A stretch of 64,000 bases of DNA from Hydrogenobacter sp. (GTDB lineage: Bacteria; Aquificota; Aquificia; Aquificales; Aquificaceae): contig JAGDVY010000040.1 in NCBI GenBank assembly GCA_023255875.1, positions 70,003-134,002 on the forward strand, read 5' to 3'. The position numbers and the translations under genes were made by a program. Position 1 is the first letter of the stretch. Every line of letters starts with the position of its first letter. A model generated the notes under the pieces. That model was given only the letters and a program-made list of their open reading frames with translations. It was not told the DNA's origin and made no database searches. Shown piece by piece: positions 5,893-26,208 of this stretch.

Positions 5893-5922
5893 CGCTTTTA
5901 TAAATGATTATAACAAGAAGCC

Positions 5923-6597
5923 TTACAAAAGTCCTCCCTCTTTCATAGAAAAGTAACTAGATGTAGTGACTATAACATGATCAAGAAGTTCAAACCCCAA
6001 AAGCTGACATGCATCTTTTATTCTTTTGGTAAACTCTAAGTCCGCTTTTGAGGGTTTTGGTTGTCCCATAGGGTGGCTATGAGCCAGTATGATAGAGTGG
6101 CAAGCACTCTTTACCGCTCCGTAAAGTACATCTTTTGGGTCTGCAAATACAGAGTTCATTCTACCTATAGCTACCGTTTCGTAGCTTATAAGGGTGTTAG
6201 AAGGACTAAGATACAGTGCCCAAAGATGTTCTCTTCTGTTATCCATCTTATCCTTGAGAAATTTATAGACATCTTGGGGGGTGTTTATAACCACATGAGA
6301 GTAGGGTTCATATATGCGCCTGCTTAGTTCAAATATAGCTTTTATTTGGCAAGCCTTTGCTTCTCCTATGCCTTCTATCTCCTTTATAATCTCATCAACG
6401 CTCATGTCTTTTAGTCTTTCCCAACCGAGTCTAACTATCTTCCTTGAAAGGGAAAGCACATCGTCCTTTTTTGTTCCAAAACCTAATATGATTGCTATTA
6501 ATTCTTCATCAGAGAGTGCATCAACACCTAAGGTTCTGAGTTTCTCTCTTGGTCTTAGCTCTTGAGGTATCTCCTTAAGCTTTCTGCTCCTGTACAT
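5923..6597 (-). CDS. radC: RadC-like JAB domain protein
   Basis: RPREKL, GIGEAKA HhH, HSHPMG..PSKAD, LLDHVIV. Confidence 0.92.
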   Translation of the reverse strand: MYRSRKLKEIPQELRPREKLRTLGVDALSDEELIAIILGFGTKKDDVLSLSRKIVRLGWERLKDMSVDEIIKEIEGIGEAKACQIKAIFELSRRIYEPYSHVVINTPQDVYKFLKDKMDNRREHLWALYLSPSNTLISYETVAIGRMNSVFADPKDVLYGAVKSACHSIILAHSHPMGQPKPSKADLEFTKRIKDACQLLGFELLDHVIVTTSSYFSMKEGGLL

Positions 6598-7813
6598 ATT
6601 TTTCCACCATCAGTTTTTTCACCTTCCTGCCGTCAGATTGTATAACTACGAACTTTAGCCCACAACAGATAATTACCTCACCTTTATGGGGTATCCTCTT
6701 TAGCTGGTATATTATAAAACCTCCTAAAGTTAAATAAGGTCCATCGGGAAACTTTATACCCGCTACCTTTTCAAACTCGTGCTTATCAACCATACCATCA
6801 ACGATCCATTTCTCCTTCTCTATTTCCTTTATGGGTTCTTCTGACTGGATGAGACTGTCACCAATTTGGCCCAAAACTTCCCTTACTATATCATCAAAGG
6901 TAACTATACCCAGTATGATACCCCTTTCGTCCACCACAAGACCCATGTGTGCGCTACTTTTCCTAAAGGTTTCAAGAGCATCCTGCAGAGTTGTAAACTC
7001 AGAGAATATGGCAAGAGGTTTTATAAACTCTTTGATGGGCGCTGAAGGAGGATTGTCTATTATATCAAACATATCCACATAACCTGTTATGTCATCAACC
7101 CTTTTTCTATAGACAGGTAGCTTGGTAAAACCGCTTTCCTTCATCCTTTGGAGAGCCTGTCCTACTGTAGAAACCTCGTCTATCATAACCACCTCATATA
7201 TGGGTCTTACCACTTCTGAAAGAGTGCTCTCTTTGAGTGCCAGAAGTTTAACAGCGGTTTTTATCCTTTCATCCTGAAGCTCTATCTCTTCTAAAAGCTT
7301 CATTACGTCTGACTTGCTTAGCTTTTCTGAATGCCTGCTTTTGAAAAACTCTGTAAGTAATCTACTTACCTTTTTTGAAAAGATAAGAAGAGGAAAAGTT
7401 ACCATTTTGAGCTTGCTAAGATACCACAGGCTTGGTATCAAGAGCTTGTCTGCGTGCTTTTGAAAAACACTTTTGGGGATTAACTCTCCAAACACAAGAG
7501 TGAAGATTACAAGACTTATAGAAACAAAGACTTCATATCCTTTTATATAAGGGATATAGTCTGAGAGTGTGATGACCGCCATGGTGTAAAAGGTGCTGGC
7601 AAAGACTATGCTTACTGTGTATCCCAACATGGAAAGGGTGATGTACTCTTCTGGGTTTTCGTGAAAGTCCTTCAAAAATCCGTACCCTGTTTTTCTATAG
7701 AGTGTTAACACCTTGCTCCTGTCAGTGCTTATAAGGACGATTTCTGCACCTGCAAAAATTCCTTCAAAGATCACAAAAAACAGAACACCAAGTATAAAAC
7801 CTAACGCTTCCAT
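6575..7813 (-). CDS. Hemolysin/CNNM-family protein (DUF21-CBS-CorC)
   Basis: FAGAEIVL, LVFGELIPKS, tandem CBS domains, TLGGFI C-terminal domain. Confidence 0.9.
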   Translation of the reverse strand: MEALGFILGVLFFVIFEGIFAGAEIVLISTDRSKVLTLYRKTGYGFLKDFHENPEEYITLSMLGYTVSIVFASTFYTMAVITLSDYIPYIKGYEVFVSISLVIFTLVFGELIPKSVFQKHADKLLIPSLWYLSKLKMVTFPLLIFSKKVSRLLTEFFKSRHSEKLSKSDVMKLLEEIELQDERIKTAVKLLALKESTLSEVVRPIYEVVMIDEVSTVGQALQRMKESGFTKLPVYRKRVDDITGYVDMFDIIDNPPSAPIKEFIKPLAIFSEFTTLQDALETFRKSSAHMGLVVDERGIILGIVTFDDIVREVLGQIGDSLIQSEEPIKEIEKEKWIVDGMVDKHEFEKVAGIKFPDGPYLTLGGFIIYQLKRIPHKGEVIICCGLKFVVIQSDGRKVKKLMVEKYVQEQKA

Positions 7814-8616
7814 CCTATTAGCACTCTGTCCTGACCTGCGTAATCTTTAAAAATATCCACTCTGAAACCTTTTTCCGCAAAGAGTTTTCTTAGAATAGAG
7901 CCCTGGTCATGCCCTATTTCTAATGCAAAAAAGCCACCGTCCTTTATAAACCTTCTTACCTCCTTAGCAAAGCGTTCGTAAAACTCATAACCCTTTTCCC
8001 CTCCTATAAGAGAAATCCAACCCTCAAGTCTTACACCTTTTGGTAAATTTTCCCACTCTCTTTGAGGTATGTAAGGTGGATTAGAAACTACAAAGTCAAA
8101 CACCATACCCTCCACCGGTTCAAACATATCTCCTTTTCTTAGTATAAGTCTTTGCTCCACCTTGTGGAGTTTTGCGTTTTCCTTGGCAAGCTCTAAAGCT
8201 ATATCCTGTACATCATCTGCATACATGATAAGATTTTTCCTTTCTAAGAGCAATGTTATAGATATGCACCCTGTTCCAATACCTATTTCAAAGCCCACGT
8301 ACTCTCCATTGGCGGGAATAAGCTCAAGGACCTTCTCACAGAGCAATTCCGTCTCTGGTCTTGGAATTAACACGCCTTCTTTTACCTTAAAAGTTCTTCC
8401 ATAAAAGTCCCACTCTCCCAAGATGTACTGAAGAGGGTAACCTTCTTCAAGGAGTTTCAGAGACTTAAGATACTCTTCCTCTATATCCTTAGATACCTCC
8501 CTGTCTTCAATAAAGTATATATCACTTGGTTTTACCTTCAGGAGGTGTGCCAGAAGGAGCTGTCTTTCCCGAAGGGACGCCTTGCTGGCTACTTTCAGAA
8601 GATCTTTGAGTTTCAT
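7801..8616 (-). CDS. prmC: Release factor glutamine methyltransferase
   Basis: PLQYILG, LIPRPETE, GTGCI, NPPY. Confidence 0.95.
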   Translation of the reverse strand: MKLKDLLKVASKASLRERQLLLAHLLKVKPSDIYFIEDREVSKDIEEEYLKSLKLLEEGYPLQYILGEWDFYGRTFKVKEGVLIPRPETELLCEKVLELIPANGEYVGFEIGIGTGCISITLLLERKNLIMYADDVQDIALELAKENAKLHKVEQRLILRKGDMFEPVEGMVFDFVVSNPPYIPQREWENLPKGVRLEGWISLIGGEKGYEFYERFAKEVRRFIKDGGFFALEIGHDQGSILRKLFAEKGFRVDIFKDYAGQDRVLIGWKR

Positions 8617-9793: not shown

Positions 9794-11462
9794 CAATACC
9801 TTTGTGTAATAGCTCACTAATAGCGCGTTTAATAAGGACAGGATCAAAACCTGCAGAACGCATACTTGCTATAAAGAGACTTGGTAATGCGTTGGCATGT
9901 ATTAGCGTGTCCTTTATGGTACCATCCTCAAAGTACATATACTTTTCAAGTTCAGCTTTTATTTTCAAAAATCCATCTTCATTCATATTCGCAATAATTT
10001 GGTTTAAAGCTTGTATATAAAAACTTTTGTCAGGAGCAGATGGAATATCTATGCCAATCTTCATAGTCTTAAGAGAATTAAGAGCCATACGGAAGGCATT
10101 TTCACTGAGAGGATTTCCCCATGCTGGAAAGACTTTACTTATTCGCAAACCTTCCAACACTTCAAGGGCGTTATACACCGCTTTTGAACAGGGCATGCTA
10201 AGAGAAGCGTACAGGACCACATCCTCTATATTGGGATCTTCAGAAAGAGAAAACTCCTCTGGCGTGCGCAAGGAACTAAAAAGATGAGAAGTAAATAAAA
10301 AGCCCGTTCCTTCCTCGTAGAGGGCAAAGGTCCCTTTATAGGGTACAAAAGGTATGGGTAAGATACGAAGCACATCACCCGTTGACAGCTTTATTTTCAT
10401 ACCTGGGAGGTTCTCTACAAGCCTTATGCGGGACATGGGAACACCAGACTTATTTAGCCATTTGGCTACATTCATAGATGTTATAACTTGAAGCTTAGGG
10501 CTACTTTGAAGCATACTGAGAATAGTGGCGCATTCATGAGCTCCAGAATCAAGCAGGACAACCGCTTTTATTATGTCTATAGTGCTTAAAATCTCTTCTA
10601 TTTTCGCCTTTACCTGAGCATAATCCTCAAGTGTGCCTGTGTTTATAAGTATAGGAATTTTTACATCCTCCCTTTCGTATATACGAAGATACACATTGGA
10701 GTGGAGCAAGAACTTGCTATCTTGCACACCTACCCAGAAAAGTCCCTTCCCAAGCTCAACAGGTTGTGTAAGGTCTGCCTTCTTGGGTAAAGAAACTGGT
10801 TTTTGCACTTTATCCTGAGTAAGTATAGCAGTTTCTGAAAACAGTTTCCTGAAGAACTCTTCAGTATTTGAGGAGCCTTCCTCAGGATAGCTTTTTCCAG
10901 CGTAAGGAAAGAGCTCTATCCTTATATCATCAAAAACAAGTATATCTTTAATATCCTCTATAGGACAGCTTGTCCCAACGATTTGTCCTTCTTTTATGTA
11001 AATACTACAGCTTTTTTCAGAAGCTTTAAGACTCATAATAGAAGATATACCACGCCTAAGGAGGTGCAAAAGAAGATTTACAGGACCAATTAGAGGTAAA
11101 TGCTTTGGATCAGTCTCTCCTCTGTTTAACCACACTGCCTTTGTGAGAAGGTCAAGAGGATTAAAGGGAAGGAGAATAAAGTTAAGGTCAGTAAAACCCA
11201 AAGCTTTTAGTTTTTCTGCATCCTCATACTTATCTATGAAAAACACAGGTATAGGAAACTTCCCCGCTTTGATGGTTTCTAACCAAAAGTTCAGGTGCTT
11301 AAGCTCCATAAGGATTATATCAAAGGAAGTAGCATCAAGAAGCTCCCTTGCCTTTTGCTCATCCAACGCTACAAGAAGTTTATGACCAGTCACATCAAAA
11401 ATGTCGCTTATAAGAGAAAAAAACTTTCTGTTTTCATCTATCAAGAGAAACCTTATACCCAT
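9780..11462 (-). CDS. Multidomain protein: receiver-like + PATAN/DUF4388-like + MBL-fold (ODP/FprA-like) domain
   Basis: N-terminal FLLIDE..DIILME receiver pattern; IYIKEGQIV segment; LFWVG..SNVYL..ILINTG MBL-fold pattern with degenerate metal ligands. Confidence 0.65.
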   Translation of the reverse strand: MGIRFLLIDENRKFFSLISDIFDVTGHKLLVALDEQKARELLDATSFDIILMELKHLNFWLETIKAGKFPIPVFFIDKYEDAEKLKALGFTDLNFILLPFNPLDLLTKAVWLNRGETDPKHLPLIGPVNLLLHLLRRGISSIMSLKASEKSCSIYIKEGQIVGTSCPIEDIKDILVFDDIRIELFPYAGKSYPEEGSSNTEEFFRKLFSETAILTQDKVQKPVSLPKKADLTQPVELGKGLFWVGVQDSKFLLHSNVYLRIYEREDVKIPILINTGTLEDYAQVKAKIEEILSTIDIIKAVVLLDSGAHECATILSMLQSSPKLQVITSMNVAKWLNKSGVPMSRIRLVENLPGMKIKLSTGDVLRILPIPFVPYKGTFALYEEGTGFLFTSHLFSSLRTPEEFSLSEDPNIEDVVLYASLSMPCSKAVYNALEVLEGLRISKVFPAWGNPLSENAFRMALNSLKTMKIGIDIPSAPDKSFYIQALNQIIANMNEDGFLKIKAELEKYMYFEDGTIKDTLIHANALPSLFIASMRSAGFDPVLIKRAISELLHKGIAIDL

Positions 11463-11710
11463 TAATAGACCTCCTTTTTCTTGGATGCCACCTCAAGCAG
11501 TTTCAGCTGATCCTTGAGTATGTTTAAGGATTGGACAACCATAAAAAAGGCATGTTCCACGTTTATAAGAGCGGACTGAAAGGAAAGGTCATCTGTGAGA
11601 AGTCTTAACTCCCTAAACTTTCTGTAATATTCATCAAGCTCTGTTCCAAAATCTAAGATGCTTTTTATAACCTCTTGGGATAATTTTAAAGCCTCTCCCT
11701 TTGTGTCCAT
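11462..11710 (-). CDS. Hypothetical helical protein
   Basis: 82-aa ORF, stop/start coupled to both neighbours, typical codon usage. Confidence 0.7.
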   Translation of the reverse strand: MDTKGEALKLSQEVIKSILDFGTELDEYYRKFRELRLLTDDLSFQSALINVEHAFFMVVQSLNILKDQLKLLEVASKKKEVY

Positions 11711-12057
11711 ATGTTTCCTATCTCCTCACCTTCCTTTCTTGGCATATTATACCTGCTGAAAAGAATAGATTCAAGTTTTTTAAAGTCTAAAGGTTCAAGT
11801 CCTTCAAAAACAAGCACATCAAGATCTTCATTTTTTTCATACCTTACACAAACATCCGCTTTATTTTCAAAAGCAAATACATCACCTCCGCCAGCCATGA
11901 ATCCCGTGCTAAGTGCCATAATTAAAAAGTTAAGATGGCTAACGCACATGGTGGGTTTGCGTATTTCCTTGTCTATGCTAAGAAGGGTACAAAGGGCAAG
12001 TCCTACGCGAAAAAGATTTTCCCCAGTAAAAGGATAAATGCCTCTCTTTCCTAACAT
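11686..12057 (-). CDS. Hypothetical protein resembling phosphohexomutase domain I
   Basis: LGKRGI..FT.ENLFRVGLAL and MALSTGFMAGGGDV resemble the PGM/PMM N-terminus; SD AGGAG before ATG 12057. Confidence 0.55.
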   Translation of the reverse strand: MLGKRGIYPFTGENLFRVGLALCTLLSIDKEIRKPTMCVSHLNFLIMALSTGFMAGGGDVFAFENKADVCVRYEKNEDLDVLVFEGLEPLDFKKLESILFSRYNMPRKEGEEIGNIWTQRERL

Positions 12058-12067
12058 TTTGTTCTCC

Positions 12068-12853
12068 TTAAATAGGCTCTCCGACAGCATCTTCTACCAC
12101 CTTTTCTATCTTCTCTATTGGGGTTAAATGTTTGCCTGCAAGAACAAAAAACTCTTCGTTTCCCTTTGAGCCTTTGGGCTTGGACTTTATCACACCTCCT
12201 ACATTAAAACCAAGTTCCTGCAAATGCTTGCACACTTTCAAAACCGCATATGCCTTGTCTTTTGGATCTCTTACTATTCCCTTTTTTACTTTCTCAGGAG
12301 TAAGCTCAAATTGGGGTTTTACAAGAATGAGCGCTATCCCATCTTCTTTGAGAAATTTAAGCACATGCGAGAGTATCTTGGTCAAGGATATAAAGGATAC
12401 ATCTACTGTTATGAGATCCACTTTTTGAGGTATGTGATCTTCTGTGAGGCTTCTTGCATCTGTCTCTTCGTATAGAATTACTCTTGGATCTTTGCGAAGC
12501 TTTATATCCATCTGAGCCCTTCCCACATCTACCGCATAAACCTTTAAAGCACCTCTTTGCAAAAGACAGTCAGTAAAGCCTCCTGTTGATGAACCCACAT
12601 CAAGAGCGACAAGGCCTTTTACATCTACCTTAAAGCGCTCCAATGCGTGTTCCAGCTTGTACCCTCCCCGAGAGACATACCTCATAGTTTCTTTGACTTC
12701 TATCCTTTGTCCTTCCTTTACCAAAAAGCCCGGTTTATCCACAATATGACCATCAACAACTACCAGACCTGACATTATAAGAGCTTGTGCCTTTTCACGC
12801 GAGCTTGCAAAACCAAGTTCAAGAAGCTTTTTATCCAGCCTCTCGCGAGGCAT
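12068..12853 (-). CDS. tlyA: TlyA family RNA methyltransferase
   Basis: S4 domain, YVSRGGYKL, DVGSSTGGFTD, DVSFISL, LVKPQFE. Confidence 0.95.
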   Translation of the reverse strand: MPRERLDKKLLELGFASSREKAQALIMSGLVVVDGHIVDKPGFLVKEGQRIEVKETMRYVSRGGYKLEHALERFKVDVKGLVALDVGSSTGGFTDCLLQRGALKVYAVDVGRAQMDIKLRKDPRVILYEETDARSLTEDHIPQKVDLITVDVSFISLTKILSHVLKFLKEDGIALILVKPQFELTPEKVKKGIVRDPKDKAYAVLKVCKHLQELGFNVGGVIKSKPKGSKGNEEFFVLAGKHLTPIEKIEKVVEDAVGEPI

Positions 12854-13092
12854 TAGAGTTTCAGAAGATACTTTATAAGGTATATCAAAAAGATAAGTAC
12901 CATAGGAGAGAAATCAAGGCCATTGATAGGCTTGATCACGGACCTTATGGGTTCAAGCATGGGAGAAACAATGCGATCTGTAAATGCATAAAGTTTGCTG
13001 TTTCTAAGGGAAGGGAACCAAGAAGCCAAAGCATGGAAAACTATTACCAGTATGAGAATATCCAAAAGTAGGGATAAAATACCTTTCATCAC
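12853..13092 (-). CDS. yggT: YggT family membrane protein
   Basis: [24 protein letters not shown]. Confidence 0.9.
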
Positions 13093-13445
13093 TCTACAAA
13101 CTCAAGTATAGCAAGCTCACAACCGTCTCCTATACGCCTAAAGGGAAGCTTTATGATCCTTGTGTATCCACCGTTTCTTCCTTCGTATCTGGGTGCTATG
13201 TCCTCAAAGAGCTTTCTTATAGCTTCTTTGTTGGGCAATATGGCTAAGGCTCTCCTCCTTGATGCAAGGTCTCCTTTTTTTGCCAAGGTTATGAGCTTTT
13301 CTGCTAAGGGTCTTACCGCCTTTGCCTTCTGCAGGGATGTTTCTATCCTCTCTTCCTTTATAAGAGCAAGCAGAAGCGATCTGTATAGAGCCAACCTCTG
13401 TTCTTTAGTTCTGTCAAAGTGTTTCTTCTTAACCTTGTGTCTCAT
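13089..13445 (-). CDS. rplQ: 50S ribosomal protein L17
   Basis: [20 protein letters not shown]. Confidence 0.98.
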
Positions 13446-13448
13446 AAC

Positions 13449-14399
13449 TTACCTCCTGCTTTCTATGTCCATACCTAAGTATAATCCCATCTGCTTTAGG
13501 GCTTCCTTTATTTCGTTTATAGCTTTTCTTCCTATGTTCTTGGTGCTCTTGAGGTCTTCCTCGGAGAGTTTGACCAGATCCCCTATGGTGTTTATACCCA
13601 TCCTCTTTATGGAATTGAGCGCTCTTTGGGACACATCAAGCTCTTCTACTGGAAGACTGAGCTTTTCCAAAAACTCATCTATTACTACGGGCTCTTCTGT
13701 TACAGGCAATTCGTAGGATATGTGTTCTAAGATTGAGAAGTGCTTCATAAGTATGGATACTGCTTCTTTTACCACCTCTTCTGGTGTCTTTGTTCCGTCC
13801 GTGTAGACTTCCATTATGAGTTTATCGTAATCGCTCCTTTTTTCTACCCTTGTCTTTTCAACCTTGAAGCTAACCTGACGAACGGGGGAAAAGTCTGCGT
13901 CCACAAGTATCCAGCCTATCTCACCTATAACTTCCATCTCTTCGGTGGGCAAGTATCCAAAGCCTCTTTCTATCTTTATCTCCATATGAAGCTCTTTGTT
14001 GGGGTCAGTTATGGTTGCTATCTTTTGATCAGGGTTTACTACTTCCACGTGAGGTGGAAGCGCTATATCCCTTGCAGTTATTACTCCCTCACCGCTCTTT
14101 TTCAGGTATAGGGTTTCCACATCGCCTTCCTTTAGGTTAAACCTAACTTTCTTGAGGTTGGCTATAATCTCAAGCACATCCTCTTGAATACCTTCTATGG
14201 CAGAAAACTCATGATATACACCGTAGATCTTTACCGCTGTTATGGCAGTGCCCTGAATGGAAGAAAGAAGGGTCCTTCTGAGGGAATTACCTAAGGTAAT
14301 ACCAAAGCCACGCTCTAAGGGTTCTACCACAAACCTTCCATAAGTTCTATCTCTCTCTTCCCAATAAACCTTAGAAGGAAAAAGAAACTCTCTTTGCAT
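13449..14399 (-). CDS. rpoA: RNA polymerase alpha subunit
   Basis: EPLERGFGITLGNSLRRTLLSS; alpha-CTD. Confidence 0.98.
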   Translation of the reverse strand: MQREFLFPSKVYWEERDRTYGRFVVEPLERGFGITLGNSLRRTLLSSIQGTAITAVKIYGVYHEFSAIEGIQEDVLEIIANLKKVRFNLKEGDVETLYLKKSGEGVITARDIALPPHVEVVNPDQKIATITDPNKELHMEIKIERGFGYLPTEEMEVIGEIGWILVDADFSPVRQVSFKVEKTRVEKRSDYDKLIMEVYTDGTKTPEEVVKEAVSILMKHFSILEHISYELPVTEEPVVIDEFLEKLSLPVEELDVSQRALNSIKRMGINTIGDLVKLSEEDLKSTKNIGRKAINEIKEALKQMGLYLGMDIESRR

Positions 14400-19779: not shown

Positions 19780-20098
19780 CTTTTTTCTCCTTAACGTGGA
19801 AATTGAGCCACCTTATAATATCATCGCTTATCTTGTAGTAGAAGTCAAGCTCGTTGGGTAGTTGCGGATTTGTGGACCTTATGCGCAGAATAAAGTACCT
19901 GCCGTGTTGAAAGTTCTTTATAGGGTATGCGAGCTTTTTTAGTCCCCAGTCTTCTTCGTGAAGGATCTCTCCCCCTTTCTTTTGGATGGTGTCTCTGATC
20001 TCCTGAAGCTTTCTTTGTACTTCCTCTTCAGTTAGCGTAGGTTTAAGGACAAACACGCTTTCATAATGTCTTACAGTCTCATAATACCTCTTTGCCAT
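19769..20098 (-). CDS. rpsF: 30S ribosomal protein S6
   Basis: RHYESVFVL, WGLKKLAYPI, IIRWL. Confidence 0.97.
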   Translation of the reverse strand: MAKRYYETVRHYESVFVLKPTLTEEEVQRKLQEIRDTIQKKGGEILHEEDWGLKKLAYPIKNFQHGRYFILRIRSTNPQLPNELDFYYKISDDIIRWLNFHVKEKKDAQ

Positions 20099-20150
20099 CT
20101 TCTACCTCCTGGACTTTTAGGTCCCTACCCTTATGGTAGGAACGAGGTAT
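20099..20150 (-). promoter_or_regulatory. Structured rpsF 5' leader (candidate ribosomal-protein autoregulatory RNA)
   Basis: Extended -10 (TGATATAAT, core at 20157-20162); ACCUC can pair with the SD GAGGU, enclosing CCUACC/GGUAGG and GGAC/GUCC hairpins. Confidence 0.55.
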
Positions 20151-20168
20151 GTAATTATTATATCACCC

Positions 20169-20495
20169 TTAACTTGCCTTTGCACCTTCTTTGACTTCTC
20201 TATCTGGCACTATGAGGGACAGTTTTTCACCATCAGAGAGCGCAAGCACCATACCTTGAGATTCTATACCCATGATCTTTCTGGGCTTTAGGTTAGCTAA
20301 GATGAGTATGCTTTTGCCTATTAGTTCCTCAGGTGCGTAGTGCTTGGCAATACCTGCTACCAGCGTGCGCTCCTCTTCTCCAAGAGAGACCCTGAGCTTT
20401 AGGAGTTTTTCAGAGCCTTCTATCCTCTCTGCGGATAGCACTTTAGCCAATCTTATGTCCAATTTAAGAAAATCCTCTATGCCTATGAGTTCCAT
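20169..20495 (-). CDS. Stand-alone tRNA-binding OB-fold protein (Trbp111 / MetRS C-terminal domain)
   Basis: IGIEDFLKLDIR, KLLKL, VAGIA, ANLKPRKIMGIESQGM. Confidence 0.92.
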   Translation of the reverse strand: MELIGIEDFLKLDIRLAKVLSAERIEGSEKLLKLRVSLGEEERTLVAGIAKHYAPEELIGKSILILANLKPRKIMGIESQGMVLALSDGEKLSLIVPDREVKEGAKAS

Positions 20496-20501
20496 GATTT
20501 T

Positions 20502-21356
20502 TTATTTGACACACTTGTTGTCATCTTCCGTTTCTATTTTAACAGCGGTCAGGCTTGTAGCTGTTGCAGGGTCTTGCTGAACTTTTACTTCAAGGCACAT
20601 ACCTTGCTTTATCTGACTTAAGCACTGGCTTTCATAGTAATCTACATGGTTTATCTCGCATTTGGTAGCTGGAGTTAGATTAACTGTATAAATCTTACCC
20701 ATCCATGTGCCTGTAAAGCTTATATCGCTTGTAATATTCTGCACCGTCAGGTATATTTCGTTTCCCTTGTCTCCCATTTCTTGAGGGGTCAGTGGCTTCA
20801 TTTTTACTTCATACACCTGCCAAGGGTTTGTGTTTGTGTTTACTTCAAACTCCTTTAATACAAAGTCAATAACAAGCTTACCCATAGAAAAGGGTTGTAC
20901 AATGCCATTGAACCTAATGTAGCATTTCTGAGTATCACACCGCACCGTGTTGGGTTTGTTGGGTTTTTCGTCCATTGGTGTAAATACAGCCTGGTATTAT
21001 ATGTTACTGGAATCTGTTATGGTAAGATTCTTGTCCATAACCACCTCAAGCCTGTTGTAAGTGCCTTGCGGGATGTTAGCGGTTGTAATGTACTGAAGAA
21101 CACCCTTTAGTTTTGCAAGGTCTGTTTGTAGCCCTTGCTGACTTGTAAAGAGATTCACCTTCTTCTGACAATTGTTGTCAGAACACAGGTTTACCTCGTA
21201 AACTTTGACCAATACAGAAGGATAATTGCTCATATCATCGGTAAAATATACAGATATAGAAGAGTTAGATGAAGTACCGCTACCACCACCTCCACCACCA
21301 CCGCAAGATACCAAAAAAGCACCCAAAACTAAAGCACCTGCCAAAACCTTTTTCAT
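20502..21356 (-). pseudogene. DUF4382-like lipoprotein interrupted by one in-frame TAA (20997-20999)
   Basis: ORFs 20997-21356 and 20502-20975 are in the same frame: AAC ATA TAA TAC CAG GCT GTA TTT ACA CCA ATG; lipobox LVSC, VYFTDD motif. Confidence 0.75.
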
Positions 21357-21380
21357 TTCTCTTATCTCCCTGGAGAACTA

Positions 21381-21408
21381 ATTATAATAATGGGTTAAGT
21401 AAAGTCAA
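21381..21408 (-). promoter_or_regulatory. Sigma70-type promoter for the lipoprotein gene
   Basis: TTGACT-16 nt-TATAAT on the minus strand. Confidence 0.55.
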
Positions 21409-21418
21409 GTATTTTAGG

Positions 21419-21437
21419 GAGGCTGTTTGAAAAATAG
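21419..21437 (+). repeat. Solo end of repeat family B
   Basis: GAGGCTGTTTGAAAAATAG; the CTGTTTGAAAAAT core is also at 34427, 45875 and (inverted) 45967-45979. Confidence 0.45.
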
Positions 21438-21454
21438 GTTTTGAGGATAAGGGC

Positions 21455-22624
21455 ATGGCTGATCACTTGCTTGTATCTTTTATAGGCAAGGCTACAAAAA
21501 GCAAGGAAGAGGGAACGGGCTACCAAAAGATAACCTACAGGTTTGAAGATGGAAGCACTTATGAAAGCTCCTTCTTCACCGTAGCCATCCACAGATACCT
21601 AAAAGAGAAACAGAACATAAAGCCTGATCTGCTTATAGTGGGCACAAACGGTTCTACTTGGGGTGAGCTCTTCCAACTTTCCGAAAGTGAGCGGGTTTTT
21701 GAGATAGCCAGGAGCTTAGAAGAAGGTTTTGACCACGAGAAACTAAAACTGCTAGAAGAGATCCTCTCTGAGGAGTTGGGCGTTAGAGTAAGACTGCTAT
21801 CAGTAGAGGACAAACCACCAAGAGTTTTTGAAATAGCAAAGGAGACCTTCAACATCCTTAGCACCGCAAACTACAAAGAGGTGTTCCTTGACATAACCCA
21901 CGCTTATAGGTATATGCCTTACTCTGTTTTGAGCGCTTTTGTGATTTATAAGAGCCTTAGGAACTTCAAACTGAGGATATTCTACGGCTTTTTGGAACAC
22001 GGGCGCAGGGAAGACCCAAAGCCAGTCTATGAGCTCACGGACATATCCCACCTTTTAGACATCTCAAATGCGGTGTCTCTCATTACTTCCACAGGAGATT
22101 TTAGGGCTTACTACGACAAGCTTGGTGCGGGAGACATTGCCCAAAAAGCCTACTACAAAATAGAAACTAATCAACAACCACGCGCCGAGTTAAAGGAGCT
22201 CATGGAGTTTAAACCACCAGATCAGTACGATACACTGCACAAGGAGATAAACCGTCTGATATCAGAGCTTAACAAAGATTACCTGGACGAGCGAATGGTC
22301 AGCAGGGCAAAGTTCTTCGCAGACAGGGGTCAGTACCTAAAGGCTATAGTACTGCTTTATGAGGCTTTTATGGTGCTTGCTTGCAGAAAACAGAATAGAC
22401 AAGACTGCAACAAATACAAAACCAGAGAAGAGATAAGGGACCAGCTTAGAAATAATGAGAAGTTTGAGTTTTTGAGCCACCTAAGAAACGTCATAGTACA
22501 TGGCAGTCAGCCAGAGGGTAAGTATGGAGGAAAGATACAGCGCATACTTGGCTCAGAAGAAGAGCTCAAAAAAGTGTTTGATGAGTACATAAGCTACTAT
22601 AACCAGCTCAGGAAGGAACTATGA
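21455..22624 (+). CDS. csx1: Csx1/Csm6-family CARF-HEPN ribonuclease (TM1812/DxTHG type)
   Basis: LLVSFIG..YQKITYRF..S.FF, LLIVGT.GS.W, DITHAYRYMP (DxTH), C-terminal HEPN RNVIVH (Rx4H). Confidence 0.85.
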   Translation: MADHLLVSFIGKATKSKEEGTGYQKITYRFEDGSTYESSFFTVAIHRYLKEKQNIKPDLLIVGTNGSTWGELFQLSESERVFEIARSLEEGFDHEKLKLLEEILSEELGVRVRLLSVEDKPPRVFEIAKETFNILSTANYKEVFLDITHAYRYMPYSVLSAFVIYKSLRNFKLRIFYGFLEHGRREDPKPVYELTDISHLLDISNAVSLITSTGDFRAYYDKLGAGDIAQKAYYKIETNQQPRAELKELMEFKPPDQYDTLHKEINRLISELNKDYLDERMVSRAKFFADRGQYLKAIVLLYEAFMVLACRKQNRQDCNKYKTREEIRDQLRNNEKFEFLSHLRNVIVHGSQPEGKYGGKIQRILGSEEELKKVFDEYISYYNQLRKEL

Positions 22625-23406
22625 GCTTAAAGTCTTACAGAACAATAAGGACCTTGTTGGGAGAGTTCAGTCTATTGGATGTAGTGTCCATTACTGTATT
22701 TTTTGGAGCGCTACCTGAGGTTTTGTTCTCGTTAATTGACTTCTTCCTTCAGGGAGAAGGGAACTCTCTAAAAAGGGCTGGGCTTTTGGCTTTGATAACC
22801 GCTGTAGCACTCGCGTACATTTCTGTGAGGTACAAAAAGCTAAAGGAGTTCTTTGAGGAGAGAGATTACCAAGTTGAGGAAGTTTTACCTTCTGCTCAGA
22901 GAGTTTTTATAACCGCCCTTAGCCTTCCAAAGCTGTCAGAAGAAGAGCTTTTGGACATAAAGCATAAGAAAAGCTTAAAGGAAATACGAGAAAAGTATGG
23001 GAAAAATTTTACTTGGATACCTTACCTTGAAACCATAGAAGACCTAAGGAGTAAAGCAAAGCTGGAAAAGATAGTGGTGATACCTTCAGAGCAGTCCAAA
23101 AATTACTACAAGCACTTTGAGAAGATGGTAAATGAGCTATTTGGAGGCTTGAGTGTAGAGCAGTTTGGACCTGCCAATTACGATGACTTTGATGACATCC
23201 AAAAGGCTATGAGGAGTGCATTAAAAGAACTCCAAAGTCGGGGCTACAAGAAAAGTGAGATCATTGTAGGTATAACTGGGGGGACTTCCGCTTTCAGCGT
23301 TGTTGCCTCTGCTCTTACTCTACCTTCAAAAATGGCACTATCCTATTACACACAGAATGCTAAAAAGATAGTTTATGTAAATATTGAGCCAGTTGAGAAC
23401 GAATGA
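22621..23406 (+). CDS. Two-TM plus CARF-like domain protein (Cam1-like membrane effector)
   Basis: Two N-terminal hydrophobic helices; WIPYLETI, VVIPSEQS, NYDDFDDI, IIVGITGGTSAFS CARF-type motifs; ATGA overlap with csx1. Confidence 0.7.
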   Translation: MSLKSYRTIRTLLGEFSLLDVVSITVFFGALPEVLFSLIDFFLQGEGNSLKRAGLLALITAVALAYISVRYKKLKEFFEERDYQVEEVLPSAQRVFITALSLPKLSEEELLDIKHKKSLKEIREKYGKNFTWIPYLETIEDLRSKAKLEKIVVIPSEQSKNYYKHFEKMVNELFGGLSVEQFGPANYDDFDDIQKAMRSALKELQSRGYKKSEIIVGITGGTSAFSVVASALTLPSKMALSYYTQNAKKIVYVNIEPVENE

Positions 23407-23456
23407 GGTCAGAAAATTGAGCGTGAGGGGGTTATAAGATATTGAGGAGGTAGATC

Positions 23457-23600
23457 ATGAAAAAACTTTTTGCTGTTGCGTTAGCGGTATCTCTGTATGG
23501 CTGTCAGGAAGCCAACCAAGTGGATAACTCAGAGCTGTGCGTGGTGAATGACTTTAGGCTCATTTTAACCATAGGATCATTTACAACAAAAGTGGTGTAG
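23457..23600 (+). CDS. Small lipoprotein (47 aa), possibly a frameshifted remnant
   Basis: SD GAGGAGG, MKKLFAVALAVSLYGC lipobox; an alternative frame continues to TAA at 23629. Confidence 0.5.
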   Translation: MKKLFAVALAVSLYGCQEANQVDNSELCVVNDFRLILTIGSFTTKVV

Positions 23601-23672
23601 TGTGTGTATACACCGCACAGAGAAACTAAAAGCTTCTAAAACAAGAGAAAAAATAAAGTAAGGAGGTAAGCC

Positions 23673-23918
23673 ATGCTGTGGTTTATTCTTGCAATTTTAG
23701 ACTTTCTGGGTCTTTGGAGGTTTGGCAGGTCTTCTAATTCTTCTGATCTTGATAGTTTCCATTCCCACAGTAATGACTGTGATATAGACAGAGCCATGTA
23801 CGATCCTTCTTGTCCTTTGTACTGGAGCTTCCATGATACAGATAGTTTTTCTTCCTCTTGGAATGGTATGGATAGTTTTTCTTCTTTTTGGGATAATCAC
23901 TCAACGGATATCTTATAA
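23673..23918 (+). CDS. Small Asp/Ser-rich protein with N-terminal hydrophobic helix
   Basis: SD AAGGAGG; internal 30-nt tandem duplication (DSFSSSW/DSFSSFW). Confidence 0.6.
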   Translation: MLWFILAILDFLGLWRFGRSSNSSDLDSFHSHSNDCDIDRAMYDPSCPLYWSFHDTDSFSSSWNGMDSFSSFWDNHSTDIL

Positions 23919-23928
23919 TGATTAACTT

Positions 23929-26208
23929 ATGGAGATCACAATAGTCCCAATAGAAGAAGAGGTAAAGCAGTCCTATATAGACTATGCTATGTCCGTCATA
24001 GTGGGGCGGGCTATTCCTGATGCTCGCGATGGACTAAAGCCTGTCCAAAGAAGGATACTCTATGCTATGTATCAGATGAACCTAACACCTGATAAACCTT
24101 TTGTAAAGAGCGCAAGAATAGTAGGGACAGTACTGGGATACTACCACCCTCACGGAGATCAGGCGGTTTATGAAGCTTTAGTTAGGATGGCTCAGGACTT
24201 TAATATGAGGTATCCCCTTATAACGGGGCAGGGAAACTTTGGTTCTATAGACGGTGATCCTCCCGCAGCTATGAGGTATTCAGAGGCAAAACTTTCCAAG
24301 GTAGCCATAAAACTCCTTGAGGACATAGAGGAGGATACCGTTGATTTTGTACCTAACTTTGACGGTTCTACCTTAGAGCCATCAGTTCTGCCTTCCAAAT
24401 TTCCCAATATGCTCTGCAATGGCTCTACGGGTATAGCGGTAGGATTAGCCACTTCCATACCACCCCATAACCTCAAAGAGGTTTGTGAGGCTCTAATAGA
24501 GCTTGCAAAGAACCCAGATATATCAACAGAAGAGATAATGAAACACATAAAAGGTCCAGATTTTCCCACAGGTGGCATCATAGAGAACTACTCTGAGCTT
24601 ATTGAGTACTATCACACAGGAAAGGGACATGTAAGGATAAGGGCAAAGGCTCACATAGAAAAACTGCAAGGAGGAAGAGAGCAAATAGTCATAACAGAAA
24701 TACCCTATCAGGTAAATAAGGCAGAACTCATAAAGAGAATGGCAGAGCTCGTAAGGGAGGGAAAGCTAAAAGAGATATCCGATATAAGGGACGAATCTGA
24801 CAAGGAAGGCATAAGGATAGTTGTGGAGCTAAAGAGAGATGCAGACGCTCAAAAGGTATTAGAAAAACTCTACAAATACACAGCCTTACGGAAAAACTTT
24901 CCCATAAACTTTGTGGTGCTTATAGACAACGAACCCAAACAGGTAGGTATAAAAGGGCTCTTGCAAGAATTCCTAAGACACAGGCTTGAGGTAATTCTCA
25001 GAAGGTCTAAACATTACTTGAGGAAGGCAGAGGATAGACTGCACATAGTGGAAGGGCTACTCATCGCTATAAGACATATGGATCAAGTAATACAAGATAT
25101 AAGAAGCTCCCAGGACACAGCGCAGGCAAGGGAAAAACTCATGCAAAAGTACTCTCTTAGTGAAAAGCAAGCGGATGCGGTACTTGATATGAGACTCCAA
25201 AGGCTCACATCTCTTGAAAGCAAAAAGCTTGAAGAAGAAAAAGAGGAACTTATGCAAAAAATAGATTACTACAAAAAGCTCATAGCCAGTGAGGAAGAGA
25301 GAATAAAGGTGTTTATACAAGAGATGGAAGAGATATCAAAAGAGTTTCCTTCCCCAAGAAGGAGTTTTGTTCTTGGATCTGAAGAAGATAAAGTGGGACA
25401 GCTTACGGTAGTCATATATTCCAACGGAAAGATTGCACCCCTTGAAGAGTTGCAGGAAGAGGAAGTGGTCAATGTATTGGATGTTCCCTTTGATGAAGGA
25501 CTATTTATGGTATCCAACAAAGGTAGAGTTTATTGGATAGCGGGTTCTCAGGCTCTTCAGGGAAGTAAAGTGTCCTTTAAGGAAGAGGACGAAAGTATCG
25601 TAGGTGCTTTTGTGAGGTCCCAAGCAAGTGATCGCATTATTCTGATAACCAAGTTGGGATATGTGAAAAAGATACCTATCGTGGACTTTGAGTACAAAGC
25701 TCAAGGTATGTCCATAATAAAGTTTTCTGAAGAAGAGGATCAAGTGATCAGAGTTCTGCAGTCTCCAGAGGAAGGCGATCTTTTGCTATTCACTCAGAAG
25801 GGTAAGTGGCTTAGGTTTCCTATAAAGGATATTCCTCCGGCTACTGTGGGCTCCAAAGGTGTTATAGGTATAAGGTTTGAGGGAACAGATACAGTCAAAG
25901 GAGCAAGAGCTCTAAGGGACTATCCGTACCTTGTGCTCATAACAGAAAAGGGTAGTGTCAGGAAGGTAAGTTTAAATGAGATACCAGTTAAAAGCAGAGG
26001 TTCCAAAGGAATGCGCCTTTTGATACACACAAAAAGTAAGCTTGTGGATGTGGTACCCATAAGAGAAAGCGCGGAAGTTATGGTAGTGACCCAAAAGGGA
26101 AAGGTCTTTTACGATAAGCTTGAGGAGAGCCAAATACCTTTTAAAGAAGTGCCTCGTTGGGACATAGGTGAGGACATCATAACAAGGATCGTAATAAAAA
26201 AGGCATAA
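23929..26208 (+). CDS. gyrA: Type IIA topoisomerase A subunit (GyrA/ParC-like)
   Basis: [29 protein letters not shown] active-site Tyr, beta-pinwheel CTD repeats. Confidence 0.95.

What the first reader, a model, noticed from the sequence alone, without database searches (positions are those of the whole stretch)
21455..23406. Orphan two-effector cOA operon (Csx1 RNase + TM-CARF) with no cas genes or array nearby
Seen: csx1-like gene (DITH, RNVIVH) coupled by an ATGA overlap to the TM-CARF gene, between a broken lipoprotein gene and gyrA. No cas10, csm/cmr, cas1/2 or repeat array appears anywhere in the 64 kb. Established: cOA is diffusible, so effectors can act in trans. Inference: a stand-alone module giving RNA degradation plus membrane depolarisation, driven by a distant type III system or by a non-CRISPR cyclase. 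Pairing two effector types away from a Cas locus could be an undescribed arrangement.
Basis: partly seen in the sequence, partly recalled or inferred. Interest (0 to 1): 0.75.

Follow-up and report, generated by a model that had tools for sequence, protein, structure and literature searches.

The report
Detached Csx1 and membrane-CARF effector pair
Two intact signal-activated CRISPR helper genes (an RNase and a membrane protein) sit alone next to gyrA, but the same small genome has a complete type III-A CRISPR machine elsewhere that lacks helpers of its own, so this is a scattered ordinary system, not an orphan or new one.

Summary
A 389-aa Csx1 (CARF plus HEPN, RNVIVH motif) and a 261-aa two-helix membrane CARF protein overlap by ATGA. 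No cas gene or CRISPR array lies in the 64-kb window.

"Orphan" fails at genome level. The 1.25-Mb, 99.9%-complete Aquificaceae genome carries one type III-A cassette on another contig: Cas10/Csm1 with HD and GGDD, Csm2-5 and Cas6. That cassette has no sensor gene beside it. At least six dispersed array sites share one repeat. A CalpL-like Lon-SAVED protease lies 21 kb from the cassette. No cas1 was found, and the only other palm-domain protein is a PAS-GGDEF enzyme.

Relatives show where the pair came from. In one metagenomic contig both families sit inside a single type III-B operon (cmr1-cmr2-cmr3-csx1-cmr4-cmr5-cmr6-TM-CARF-cas6). In another genus csx1 holds the same cmr3|cmr4 slot. The two gene trees agree, and the cmr-embedded copy is sister to the stand-alone pairs. 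Both genes are under purifying selection (dN/dS 0.16-0.21).

Best reading: these are trans-encoded, probably cA4-activated effectors driven by the resident Csm complex. Csx1 with a membrane CARF is a documented combination, and effectors encoded elsewhere have been proposed before. Interest is modest.

The parts
21455..22624 (+). csx1: CARF-HEPN ribonuclease gene (389 aa), TM1812/TIGR02221 family
   Evidence: ORF. PADLOC CARF2--CARF_HEPN 4e-91; TIGR02221 above cut-off. Foldseek best hits are Marinitoga Csx1-Crn2 with cA4 (5e-12), SSO1389, TtCsm6 and PfuCsx1. dN/dS 0.16 against the G002 orthologue.
21890..21901 (+). DITH (DxTHG-type CARF motif, residues 146-149)
   Evidence: TIGR02549 24.4 bits, cut-off 21; position.
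22484..22501 (+). HEPN catalytic motif R-N-V-I-V-H (R344...H349)
   Evidence: R344, N345, V348, H349 and G350 are invariant in 8 orthologues; position.
22621..22624 (+). ATGA stop/start overlap that couples the two genes
   Evidence: Sequence read directly. The same overlap is present in the G002 paralogous pair.
22621..23406 (+). 2TM-CARF membrane effector gene (261 aa), Cam1-like in architecture
   Evidence: PADLOC 'TM+CARF' 6e-23 and 'CARF, 2 TMs' 6e-18. AF2 pLDDT 90. Foldseek best hit is the Cam1 CARF domain, 8t66, 4.8e-6. dN/dS 0.19-0.21.
22672..22857 (+). Predicted transmembrane helical hairpin (helices 18-44 and 47-79). TM1 carries P32-E33, which matches the family consensus W-x-P-D.
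   Evidence: AF2 secondary structure, hydropathy, family alignment.
22867..23391 (+). CARF domain of the membrane protein, with the GITGGTS loop at 23269-23289 (family consensus DITGGxK)
21357..21454 (+). 98-bp upstream intergenic region with a GAGGA ribosome-binding site about 9 nt before the ATG. No convincing plus-strand promoter was found.

Best explanation
The two genes are a co-inherited pair of type III CRISPR ancillary effectors that now lies away from the rest of the system.

**Proposed mechanism**
1. The genome's single type III-A (Csm) complex is guided by crRNAs that Cas6 processes from the dispersed arrays. It recognises an invader transcript.
2. The Cas10 Palm/GGDD site then makes cyclic oligoadenylate, most likely cA4.
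3. This diffusible signal binds the CARF domains of Csx1 and the 2TM-CARF protein. Csx1 switches on non-specific HEPN RNase activity. The 2TM-CARF protein probably oligomerises into a membrane pore and depolarises the cell.
4. The signal probably also activates the CalpL-like Lon-SAVED protease at C2:143-1597.

**Origin.** The pair most likely came from a type III-B (cmr) operon, where both genes are embedded in relatives. It was kept after being separated from that operon, and G000 no longer has a III-B system.

**Shown here:** gene identities, motifs and folds; the presence, completeness and effector-less state of the Csm cassette; absence of another Cas10; co-inheritance; purifying selection; the embedded arrangement in relatives.

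**Inferred:** the ligand (cA4), activation in trans, pore formation, and the direction of the rearrangement.
For: **Identity and integrity of the two genes**
- Family matches.
- HEPN R-x4-H is invariant in 8 orthologues.
- Confident models, pLDDT 90 and 86.
- Best folds: Cam1 CARF for the membrane protein and cA4-binding Csx1-Crn2/Csx1/TtCsm6 for Csx1.

**A signal source exists**
- C2:22557-29031 encodes Cas6, Csm5, Csm4, Csm3, Csm2 and Cas10/Csm1.
- Cas10/Csm1 scores 1e-173 to TIGR02578. Its sequence shows 'LLHDIGK' and 'YSGGDDLF'.
- No CARF or SAVED gene lies beside the cassette. Its neighbours are PhoD on one side and a 792-aa plus 1013-aa pair on the other.
- It is the only Cas10 in a 99.9%-complete genome.

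**Arrays**
- Seventeen repeats at six contig sites. The transcribed orientation ends in ATTGAAAC.

**Relatives**
- L030 has cmr1-cas10-cmr3-csx1 (59% identical)-cmr4-cmr5-cmr6-TM-CARF (42% identical)-x-cas6.
- G036 and G024 have csx1 between cmr3 and cmr4.

**Co-inheritance and selection**
- Both trees give ((G000,G002a),G002b),L030 with 92-100% support.
- dN/dS is 0.16 for csx1 and 0.19-0.21 for TM-CARF.

**Co-occurrence with Cas10**
- All 5 genomes with this csx1 clade have Cas10.
- 15 of 17 TM-CARF genomes have Cas10, against 23 of 44 without TM-CARF (Fisher p=0.008, not corrected for phylogeny).

**Literature**
- Csx1 co-occurs with Cam1-type effectors. 133 cyclase-positive loci lack effectors, and 'effectors coded elsewhere' has been proposed (PMC11229360).
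Against:
- No convincing plus-strand promoter lies upstream.
- No cas1 was detected, so the CRISPR system cannot acquire spacers and could be decaying.
- Three spacers tried against viral contigs found nothing.
- The window clade of TM-CARF has G in place of the family's near-invariant D in the DITGGxK loop.
- The orthologous TM-CARF in G002 carries a 1-nt deletion.
- The ligand and the membrane activity are inferred from distant relatives (14-16% identity).
- The genome is in 42 contigs, so true distances are only lower bounds (at least about 65 kb from the contig geometry).
Confidence: 0.8

Rival explanations
1. The pair is a genuinely CRISPR-independent module. It would be switched on by a nucleotide made by a non-Cas10 cyclase (CBASS-type, mCpol or GGDEF-like) or by another ligand.
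For: - The pair is flanked only by housekeeping genes here and in G002.
- A PAS-GGDEF protein with a weak Cas10-palm2 hit exists at C27.
- 2 of 17 TM-CARF genomes showed no Cas10 at the threshold used.
Against: - The C27 protein is a standard PAS-PAS-GGDEF diguanylate cyclase (GGDEF 1.3e-46).
- An intact Cas10 with GGDD and no nearby sensor gene is present.
- Both families are embedded in cmr operons in relatives.
- Presence of the pair tracks Cas10 within the genus: G000 and G002 have both, while G001, G003, G005 and G006 have neither.
- One of the two exceptions (G023) has a csm5 fragment beside its TM-CARF at a contig end.
- A CD-NTase/SMODS search was not run.
Confidence: 0.05
2. The pair is a functionless relic of a lost type III-B locus that has not yet decayed. 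It is not used by the III-A system, for example because of a ligand mismatch or no expression.
For: - The sister arrangement is cmr-embedded, and G000 has no cmr genes.
- The G002 orthologue of TM-CARF has a frameshift.
- The CARF loop has a D-to-G change.
- The genome lacks cas1, and a neighbouring gene is broken.
- Expression is untested.
Against: - dN/dS is 0.16-0.21 across dS of about 0.2-0.34 since the G000/G002 split. This shows sustained purifying selection on both genes.
- All catalytic and structural motifs are intact.
- Without the pair and the CalpL-like protease, the cyclase-competent Csm cassette would have no effector at all.
- G002 keeps a second intact pair.
Confidence: 0.1
3. 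The pair is a small mobile 'effector cassette' that moves between chromosomal sites and genomes independently of cas loci. It plugs into whichever Cas10 is present. This is compatible with the best explanation for mechanism but differs on origin.
For: - G002 carries two diverged copies (62% and 49% identical) at different sites. One lies next to an IS110 transposase.
- Tandem, divergent and operon-embedded arrangements all occur.
- Flanking genes differ between G000 and G002 apart from the nearby gyrA.
Against: - No terminal repeats, integrase or att-like sites were seen around the window copy. Its intergenic flanks have no extended copies elsewhere.
- GC content matches the genome.
- The trees are also explained by vertical descent plus rearrangement.
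Confidence: 0.2

Closest known systems
Csx1 CARF-HEPN ribonucleases (TM1812/TIGR02221 family; structural relatives Marinitoga Csx1-Crn2 8Y7G, S. solfataricus SSO1389 2I71, P. furiosus Csx1 4EOG, T. thermophilus Csm6 5FSH)
   Same: - N-terminal CARF with a DxTHG motif and C-terminal HEPN with R-x4-H.
- Full-length profile matches and matching fold.
- Embedded in type III operons in relatives.
   Different: - Only 13-16% identical to any solved structure.
- No fused Crn2 ring nuclease.
- In this genome it is at least about 65 kb from cas10 or on another replicon region, and it is translationally coupled to a membrane CARF gene.
Cam1 (cOA-activated membrane protein 1, Nitrosococcus halophilus; PDB 8T64-8T66; PMC10808066)
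   Same: - A small protein with an N-terminal membrane segment and a C-terminal CARF and no enzymatic domain.
- Cam1's CARF domain is the best fold match (E 4.8e-6, TM-score 0.59-0.68 normalised to Cam1).
- An acidic residue is conserved in the membrane helix.
- Usually accompanied by another CARF effector.
   Different: - Cam1 has one 24-aa helix and 206 aa. This protein has a two-helix hairpin plus an N-terminal amphipathic helix, an extra helical insertion in the CARF domain, and 261 aa.
- Sequence similarity is marginal (profile E 0.19, 14% identity).
- The family signature is W-x-P-[D/E] in TM1, not Cam1's D17.
Catalogued but uncharacterised 2TM-CARF families (PADLOC PDLC01053 'TM+CARF', PDLC01168 'CARF, 2 TMs', CARF8--CARF_TM)
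   Same: Direct profile matches over nearly the full length (6e-23, 6e-18 and 7e-13).
   Different: No experimental data exist for these models as far as I found. The family is small, with 113 representative clusters at E<=1e-3 among 1.84 billion proteins.
Effector-less, cyclase-positive type III loci proposed to use effectors encoded elsewhere (Hoikkala et al. 2024, PMC11229360)
   Same: A Csm cassette with an intact GGDD and no CARF or SAVED gene in the locus, with the effectors elsewhere in the genome.
   Different: - That study linked effector-less loci to genomes with several type III loci. Here there is one Cas10 only, and the effectors are stand-alone rather than part of a second locus.
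- This Cas10 also has an HD domain, so it falls outside their strict 'no HD' subset.
CalpL-CalpT-CalpS (cA4-activated Lon-SAVED protease signalling). From memory, it was characterised from Sulfurihydrogenibium, another Aquificota member.
   Same: - A CalpL-like protein (PADLOC 6e-115) is present in this genome.
- It sits directly upstream of csx1/TM-CARF in G022 and of the cmr operon in G036 and G024.
   Different: - It is not part of the window.
- Its partner genes could not be confirmed, because the gene lies at a contig start with only a weak trace of an upstream homologue.

Membership tests
Csx1 (CARF-HEPN type III ancillary RNase) | N-terminal CARF domain with DxTHG-type motif | tested here: met
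   PF22230 29.4 bits (cut-off 24.7). TIGR02549 24.4 bits (cut-off 21). DITH at residue 146.
Csx1 (CARF-HEPN type III ancillary RNase) | C-terminal HEPN domain with R-x4-6-H | tested here: met
   RNVIVH at 344-349. R, N, H and the following G are invariant in 8 orthologues.
Csx1 (CARF-HEPN type III ancillary RNase) | Full-length family profile and fold | tested here: met
   PADLOC CARF2--CARF_HEPN 4e-91 over 3-385. TIGR02221 90.9 bits (cut-off 76.25). Foldseek Csx1-Crn2 5e-12, SSO1389, PfuCsx1.
Csx1 (CARF-HEPN type III ancillary RNase) | cOA-activated RNase activity | not testable with these tools
   Needs an RNase assay with and without cA4 or cA6.
Csx1 (CARF-HEPN type III ancillary RNase) | Genomic association with a type III locus | tested here: met
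   - Not adjacent in G000, G002 or G022.
- Inside cmr operons in L030, G036 and G024.
- 5 of 5 genomes with this clade have Cas10.
Cam1 | Single N-terminal transmembrane helix followed by linker and CARF (about 206 aa) | tested here: not met
   Two long helices (18-44, 47-79) form a hairpin, and the protein is 261 aa. Cam1 features are from PMC10808066.
Cam1 | Sequence homology to Cam1 beyond the generic CARF core | tested here: inconclusive
   Family profile against PDB: Cam1 E 0.19 over 47 residues. Foldseek ranks Cam1 first, but at 14% identity and close to other CARFs.
Cam1 | Conserved pore-lining acidic residue in the membrane helix | tested here: inconclusive
   The family has a conserved P-[D/E] (P32-E33 here) in TM1. 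Whether it lines a pore is unknown.
Cam1 | cA4 binding, tetrameric pore, membrane depolarisation | not testable with these tools
   Only a monomer model was possible. This needs biochemistry and membrane-potential assays.
2TM-CARF (PADLOC PDLC01053 / PDLC01168 / CARF8--CARF_TM) | Profile match over TM region plus CARF | tested here: met
   6e-23 (residues 7-257), 6e-18 (11-255) and 7e-13 (22-242).
Cap1 (2TM + CARF-like + DUF4579) | C-terminal DUF4579 domain after the CARF-like domain | tested here: not met
   No DUF4579 hit in Pfam at E<=1, and the protein ends right after the CARF. Architecture is from bioRxiv 10.1101/2025.11.13.688252.
Type III-A CRISPR-Cas system (whole genome) | Cas10/Csm1 with HD and cyclase GGDD, plus Csm2-Csm5 | tested here: met
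   TIGR02578 1e-173, with Csm2, Csm3, Csm4 and Csm5 all above cut-off. 'LLHDIGK' and 'YSGGDDLF' are read in the sequence.
Type III-A CRISPR-Cas system (whole genome) | Cas6 and CRISPR arrays | tested here: met
   Cas6_IIIa 1e-29. 17 repeats at 6 contig sites, with 10 complete spacers.
Type III-A CRISPR-Cas system (whole genome) | Adaptation module (Cas1/Cas2) | tested here: not met
   Best Cas1 hit E 0.07 at 11 bits, in a 99.9%-complete genome. Cas2 was not searched separately.
Type III-A CRISPR-Cas system (whole genome) | CARF or SAVED effector inside the locus | tested here: not met
   Genes flanking the cassette are PhoD and a 792-aa plus 1013-aa pair with no CARF or SAVED hits.

The most novel reading that the evidence does not exclude
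The effectors outlived their original complex. The csx1 and 2TM-CARF pair (and perhaps the CalpL-like protease) were born inside a type III-B operon. They were retained as a detached, co-inherited 'effector island' after the III-B complex was lost. They are now driven solely by a type III-A Cas10 encoded at least 65 kb away. This would be a natural case of cross-subtype effector adoption, in a genome where every part of the CRISPR system (complex, arrays, three effectors) is at a separate site. If the 2TM-CARF protein forms a pore, it would also be a membrane-effector class distinct from Cam1, Cap1 and Chp1.
Probability: 0.4. Interest if true: 0.45.

Novelty: new member of a known kind. Interest (0 to 1): 0.3.

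Why it matters
- **A natural test case for trans signalling.** Cyclic-oligoadenylate signalling is expected to work in trans, but it is mostly studied with effectors in the same locus. Here one cyclase-competent Csm cassette has no sensor gene beside it, and three candidate sensors are scattered elsewhere. The genome is tiny (1.25 Mb) and has no second Cas10 to confuse the picture.
- **A caution for surveys.** Locus-based surveys that score a type III system as 'effector-less' can be misled by gene dispersal. Dispersal appears common in this family: 9 of 16 TM-CARF genes are not within 10 kb of cas10.
- **An uncharacterised membrane effector.** The 2TM-CARF protein belongs to a small, experimentally untouched family. 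It could extend the Cam1/Cap1/Chp1 set of membrane-depolarising CRISPR effectors.
- **Limits.** None of this changes the current understanding of type III immunity.

Tried and rejected
**Searches that were insensitive or empty**
- The word-indexed homologue search for TM-CARF found only the protein itself.
- The first genome-contig scan with Csx1 found nothing.
- The second scan gave a single locus, an Aquificaceae MAG.
- Several homologue contigs were too short to give context.
- Rfam on 20000-24500 found nothing at E<=0.1.
- The promoter/terminator scan gave no more hits than shuffles and no plus-strand promoter upstream of csx1.
- Spacers have no self-targets. Three spacer cores found no exact match in viral contigs, and I did not go further.

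**Ideas considered and rejected**
- A non-CRISPR cyclase: the C27 candidate is a PAS-GGDEF protein.
- A Crn1 ring nuclease: none found with PF09651.
- A Can-type CARF nuclease: the PDLC01880 scan only re-found the TM-CARF gene.
- Cmr3 ancestry of the 318-aa gene upstream of csx1 in G002: no similarity to any cmr gene.

**Idea left open**
- The tandem ATGA junction could have arisen by deletion of cmr4-6 between two ATGA junctions. It is attractive because L030 has ATGA overlaps at csx1/cmr4 and cmr6/TM-CARF, but I could not test it.
Full report
**1. The observation**

The window is contig C18:70003-134002 of a 1.25-Mb, 42-contig genome that is 99.9% complete. Two plus-strand ORFs, 21455..22624 (389 aa) and 22621..23406 (261 aa), overlap by ATGA.

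The first is a full-length CARF-HEPN protein:
- PADLOC CARF2--CARF_HEPN scores 4e-91 over residues 3-385.
- TIGR02221 (cas_TM1812), the TIGR02549 DxTHG motif and PF22230 Csx1_CARF are all above their cut-offs.
- DITH is at residue 146 and RNVIVH at 344-349.

The second matches the PADLOC models 'TM+CARF' (6e-23), 'CARF, 2 TMs' (6e-18) and CARF8--CARF_TM (7e-13).

The flanks are as follows. Upstream on the other strand is a DUF4382 lipoprotein gene interrupted by one in-frame TAA. Downstream come two small ORFs with strong ribosome-binding sites, then gyrA. The window has no tandem array, no copy of the genome's CRISPR repeat and no Cas10 or Cas1 hit.

**2. The genome is not without a type III system**

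Contig C2:22557-29031 (minus strand) encodes Cas6, Csm5, Csm4, Csm3, Csm2 and an 809-aa Cas10/Csm1. Cas10/Csm1 scores 1e-173 to TIGR02578, and all the Csm subunits are above cut-off. The Cas10 sequence shows an N-terminal HD motif (LLHDIGK) and the cyclase motif YSGGDDLF.

The cassette has no CARF or SAVED gene next to it. One side is PhoD. The other is a 792-aa plus 1013-aa gene pair of unknown function.

It is the only Cas10 in the genome. The one other palm-domain hit (C27) is a PAS-PAS-GGDEF diguanylate cyclase.

A 30-nt repeat occurs 17 times at six contig sites (C1, C3, C4, C11, both ends of C13, C38). Read as GTTTGTAAGCCCACTGTGTGGGATTGAAAC, it ends in the usual ATTGAAAC tag. Most sites are at contig ends. 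The arrays whose flanks are visible lie between housekeeping genes: efp and rlpA, asd, and ileS.

Other parts of the system:
- No Cas1 was detected.
- No Crn1-type ring nuclease was detected.
- A third candidate sensor-effector lies at C2:143-1597. It is a CalpL-like Lon-SAVED protease (PADLOC 6e-115) and the only SAVED protein in the genome.

From contig geometry, the csx1 pair is at least about 65 kb from the csm cassette. The whole system is therefore scattered: complex, arrays and effectors are each in different places.

**3. The two proteins**

*Csx1.* The AF2 model (pLDDT 86) best matches Marinitoga Csx1-Crn2 bound to cA4 (5e-12). Next come SSO1389, T. thermophilus Csm6 and P. furiosus Csx1. 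R344, N345, H349 and G350 are invariant in eight orthologues.

*The membrane protein.* The model (pLDDT 90) has a short amphipathic helix, a helical hairpin (18-44 and 47-79) and a CARF domain (83-257). Its best fold match is the CARF domain of Cam1 (4.8e-6, TM-score 0.59-0.68 relative to Cam1, 14% identity). Can2, Csm6, Cdn1, Cami1 and Crn1 follow closely.

At sequence level the family profile reaches Cam1 only at E 0.19. Cam1 proper has a single 24-aa helix, 206 aa and a conserved D17 (PMC10808066). This family has two helices and a conserved W-x-P-[D/E] in TM1, which is P32-E33 here. It is therefore Cam1-like in architecture but not a Cam1 family member. It is also neither Cap1 (no DUF4579) nor Chp1 (no HAD domain or four TM helices).

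The family is small: 113 representative clusters among 1.84 billion proteins. In the window clade the near-invariant D of the DITGGxK loop is G.

**4. Relatives**

*The tandem pair recurs among 60 related genomes:*
- G002 (same genus) has an orthologous pair at 90% and 85% identity, also near a gyrA fragment. Its TM-CARF carries a single 1-nt deletion.
- G002 also has a paralogous pair at 62% and 49% identity, next to an IS110 transposase.
- G022 (another genus) has a pair at 39% and 23% identity. There a CalpL-like gene sits immediately upstream, and the csm cassette is 27 kb away.

*The embedded arrangement also occurs:*
- A metagenomic contig (L030) carries cmr1-cas10/cmr2-cmr3-csx1-cmr4-cmr5-cmr6-TM-CARF-x-cas6. 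Its csx1 is 59% and its TM-CARF 42% identical to the window genes.
- In genus g10 (G036, G024) csx1 again sits between cmr3 and cmr4, and a CalpL-like gene precedes the operon.
- In L031 the two genes are divergent neighbours.

*Phylogeny and selection.* Maximum-likelihood trees of the two proteins give the same topology, ((G000,G002a),G002b),L030, with 92-100% support. The genes are therefore co-inherited, and the closest relative of the stand-alone pairs is a cmr-embedded arrangement. dN/dS between G000 and G002 is 0.16 for csx1 and 0.19-0.21 for TM-CARF, compared with 0.03 for gyrA.

*Co-occurrence with Cas10.* All five genomes with this csx1 clade have Cas10. Of 17 genomes with a TM-CARF hit, 15 have Cas10, against 23 of 44 without a hit (one-sided Fisher p=0.008, not corrected for phylogeny). 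One of the two exceptions has a csm5 fragment beside the gene at a contig end. Seven of 16 TM-CARF genes lie within 10 kb of cas10. The other nine are 17 kb to more than 1 Mb away or on other contigs. Dispersal of this effector is therefore common in this family of bacteria. The family is Aquificaceae, judged from a named MAG whose TM-CARF is nearly identical to those of two same-family genomes.

**5. Mechanism**

The best-supported reading has three steps:
1. The resident Csm complex recognises an invader transcript.
2. Its Cas10 makes cOA.
3. The signal activates Csx1 (RNA degradation), the 2TM-CARF protein (membrane permeabilisation or depolarisation) and probably the CalpL-like protease, all in trans.

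cA4 is the likely ligand, because Csx1, Cam1 and CalpL are all cA4-type effectors in the literature and tend to co-occur (PMC11229360). This is inference. The rival readings, each with a rough probability (the fourth overlaps the best reading on mechanism, so the figures do not sum to one), are:
- a CRISPR-independent module (0.05);
- a not-yet-decayed relic (0.1);
- an independently mobile effector cassette (0.2, compatible with the mechanism).

**6. Comparison with what is known, and novelty**

Csx1 with a Cam1-type membrane CARF in one system is documented. Cam1 homologues are mostly accompanied by another CARF effector. Hoikkala et al. reported 133 cyclase-positive loci without effectors and suggested that they use effectors encoded elsewhere.

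Unverified earlier notes of this scan describe several other detached CARF modules in other lineages. That fits the view that the pattern is recurrent.

What is modestly new here:
- a clean single-Cas10 example of that scenario;
- apparent adoption of III-B-derived effectors by a III-A system;
- an uncharacterised 2TM-CARF family.

I class the finding as a new member of a known kind, with interest of about 0.3.

**7. Limits**

- The assembly is fragmented.
- Ligand and activities are inferred from relatives with 13-16% identity.
- The co-occurrence statistics are not phylogenetically corrected.
- The direction of the rearrangement (out of, rather than into, cmr operons) rests on parsimony from two embedded lineages.

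Noticed in passing
G000 contig C2:29040-34452 (L003:12041-17453, minus strand), directly upstream of cas10: Two large co-oriented genes sit between hisF and cas10. One is 792 aa with no Pfam or NCBIfam family and only a weak PADLOC pAgo hit (7e-5). The other is 1013 aa with a Helicase_C domain, a weak Cas3d hit and a PD-(D/E)xK-like N-terminal stretch by eye. They are absent from the same position in G002. This may be an uncharacterised defence pair attached to the csm cassette.
   Followed up: partly
G000 contig C2:143-1597: A CalpL-like Lon-SAVED protease (PADLOC 6e-115), 21 kb from the csm cassette at a contig start. It is the only SAVED protein in the genome. The 142 bases before it weakly resemble the C-terminus of the gene that precedes calpL-like in G036 (E 0.065), so partner genes may be lost in the assembly gap.
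   Followed up: partly
G000 contigs C1, C3, C4:5090-5330, C11, C13 (both ends), C38: CRISPR arrays with one 30-nt repeat are scattered over at least six sites between housekeeping genes. No Cas1 is detectable in the genome. In G002 the csm cassette is followed by an array and efp. In G000 the efp-side array remains but the cassette is elsewhere, which points to a rearrangement with a breakpoint at the array.
   Followed up: partly
window 20502-21356 (minus strand): A DUF4382 lipoprotein gene (signal peptide plus lipobox LVSCGGG) is interrupted by a single in-frame TAA after codon 119. The rest of the frame stays open for 165 more codons. This is either a recent pseudogene or a sequencing error.
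   Followed up: partly
window 23457-23600 and 23673-23918 (plus strand): Two small ORFs with strong ribosome-binding sites lie between TM-CARF and gyrA. One is a 47-aa putative lipoprotein (MKKLFAVALAVSLYGC...). The other is an 81-aa protein with an N-terminal hydrophobic helix and a Ser/Asp-rich tail. Neither has a Pfam family.
   Followed up: no
window 21403-21435: A 33-nt element in the csx1 upstream spacer has 85-94% identical copies on contigs C1, C30, C2 and C16. It overlaps a near-consensus promoter (TTGACT-16-TATAAT) that points to the minus-strand lipoprotein gene. It may be a shared promoter or a small repeat element.
   Followed up: no
L019 (G002 C19) 7512-8468 and 10999-13922: In the same-genus genome a 318-aa gene with a weak CARF4--CARF_PDDEXK hit (1e-6, nuclease part) overlaps the start of csx1. 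It may be a third effector that G000 lacks. Only the first 177 codons of gyrA are found next to the pair there, with an otsA/otsB fusion gene in between.
   Followed up: no
L024 (G022 C24) 5163-6759: Two genes of unknown family (258 and 281 aa) directly precede the CalpL-like gene, csx1 and TM-CARF in G022. From their position they could be CalpT/CalpS-type partners, but no family match was found.
   Followed up: no
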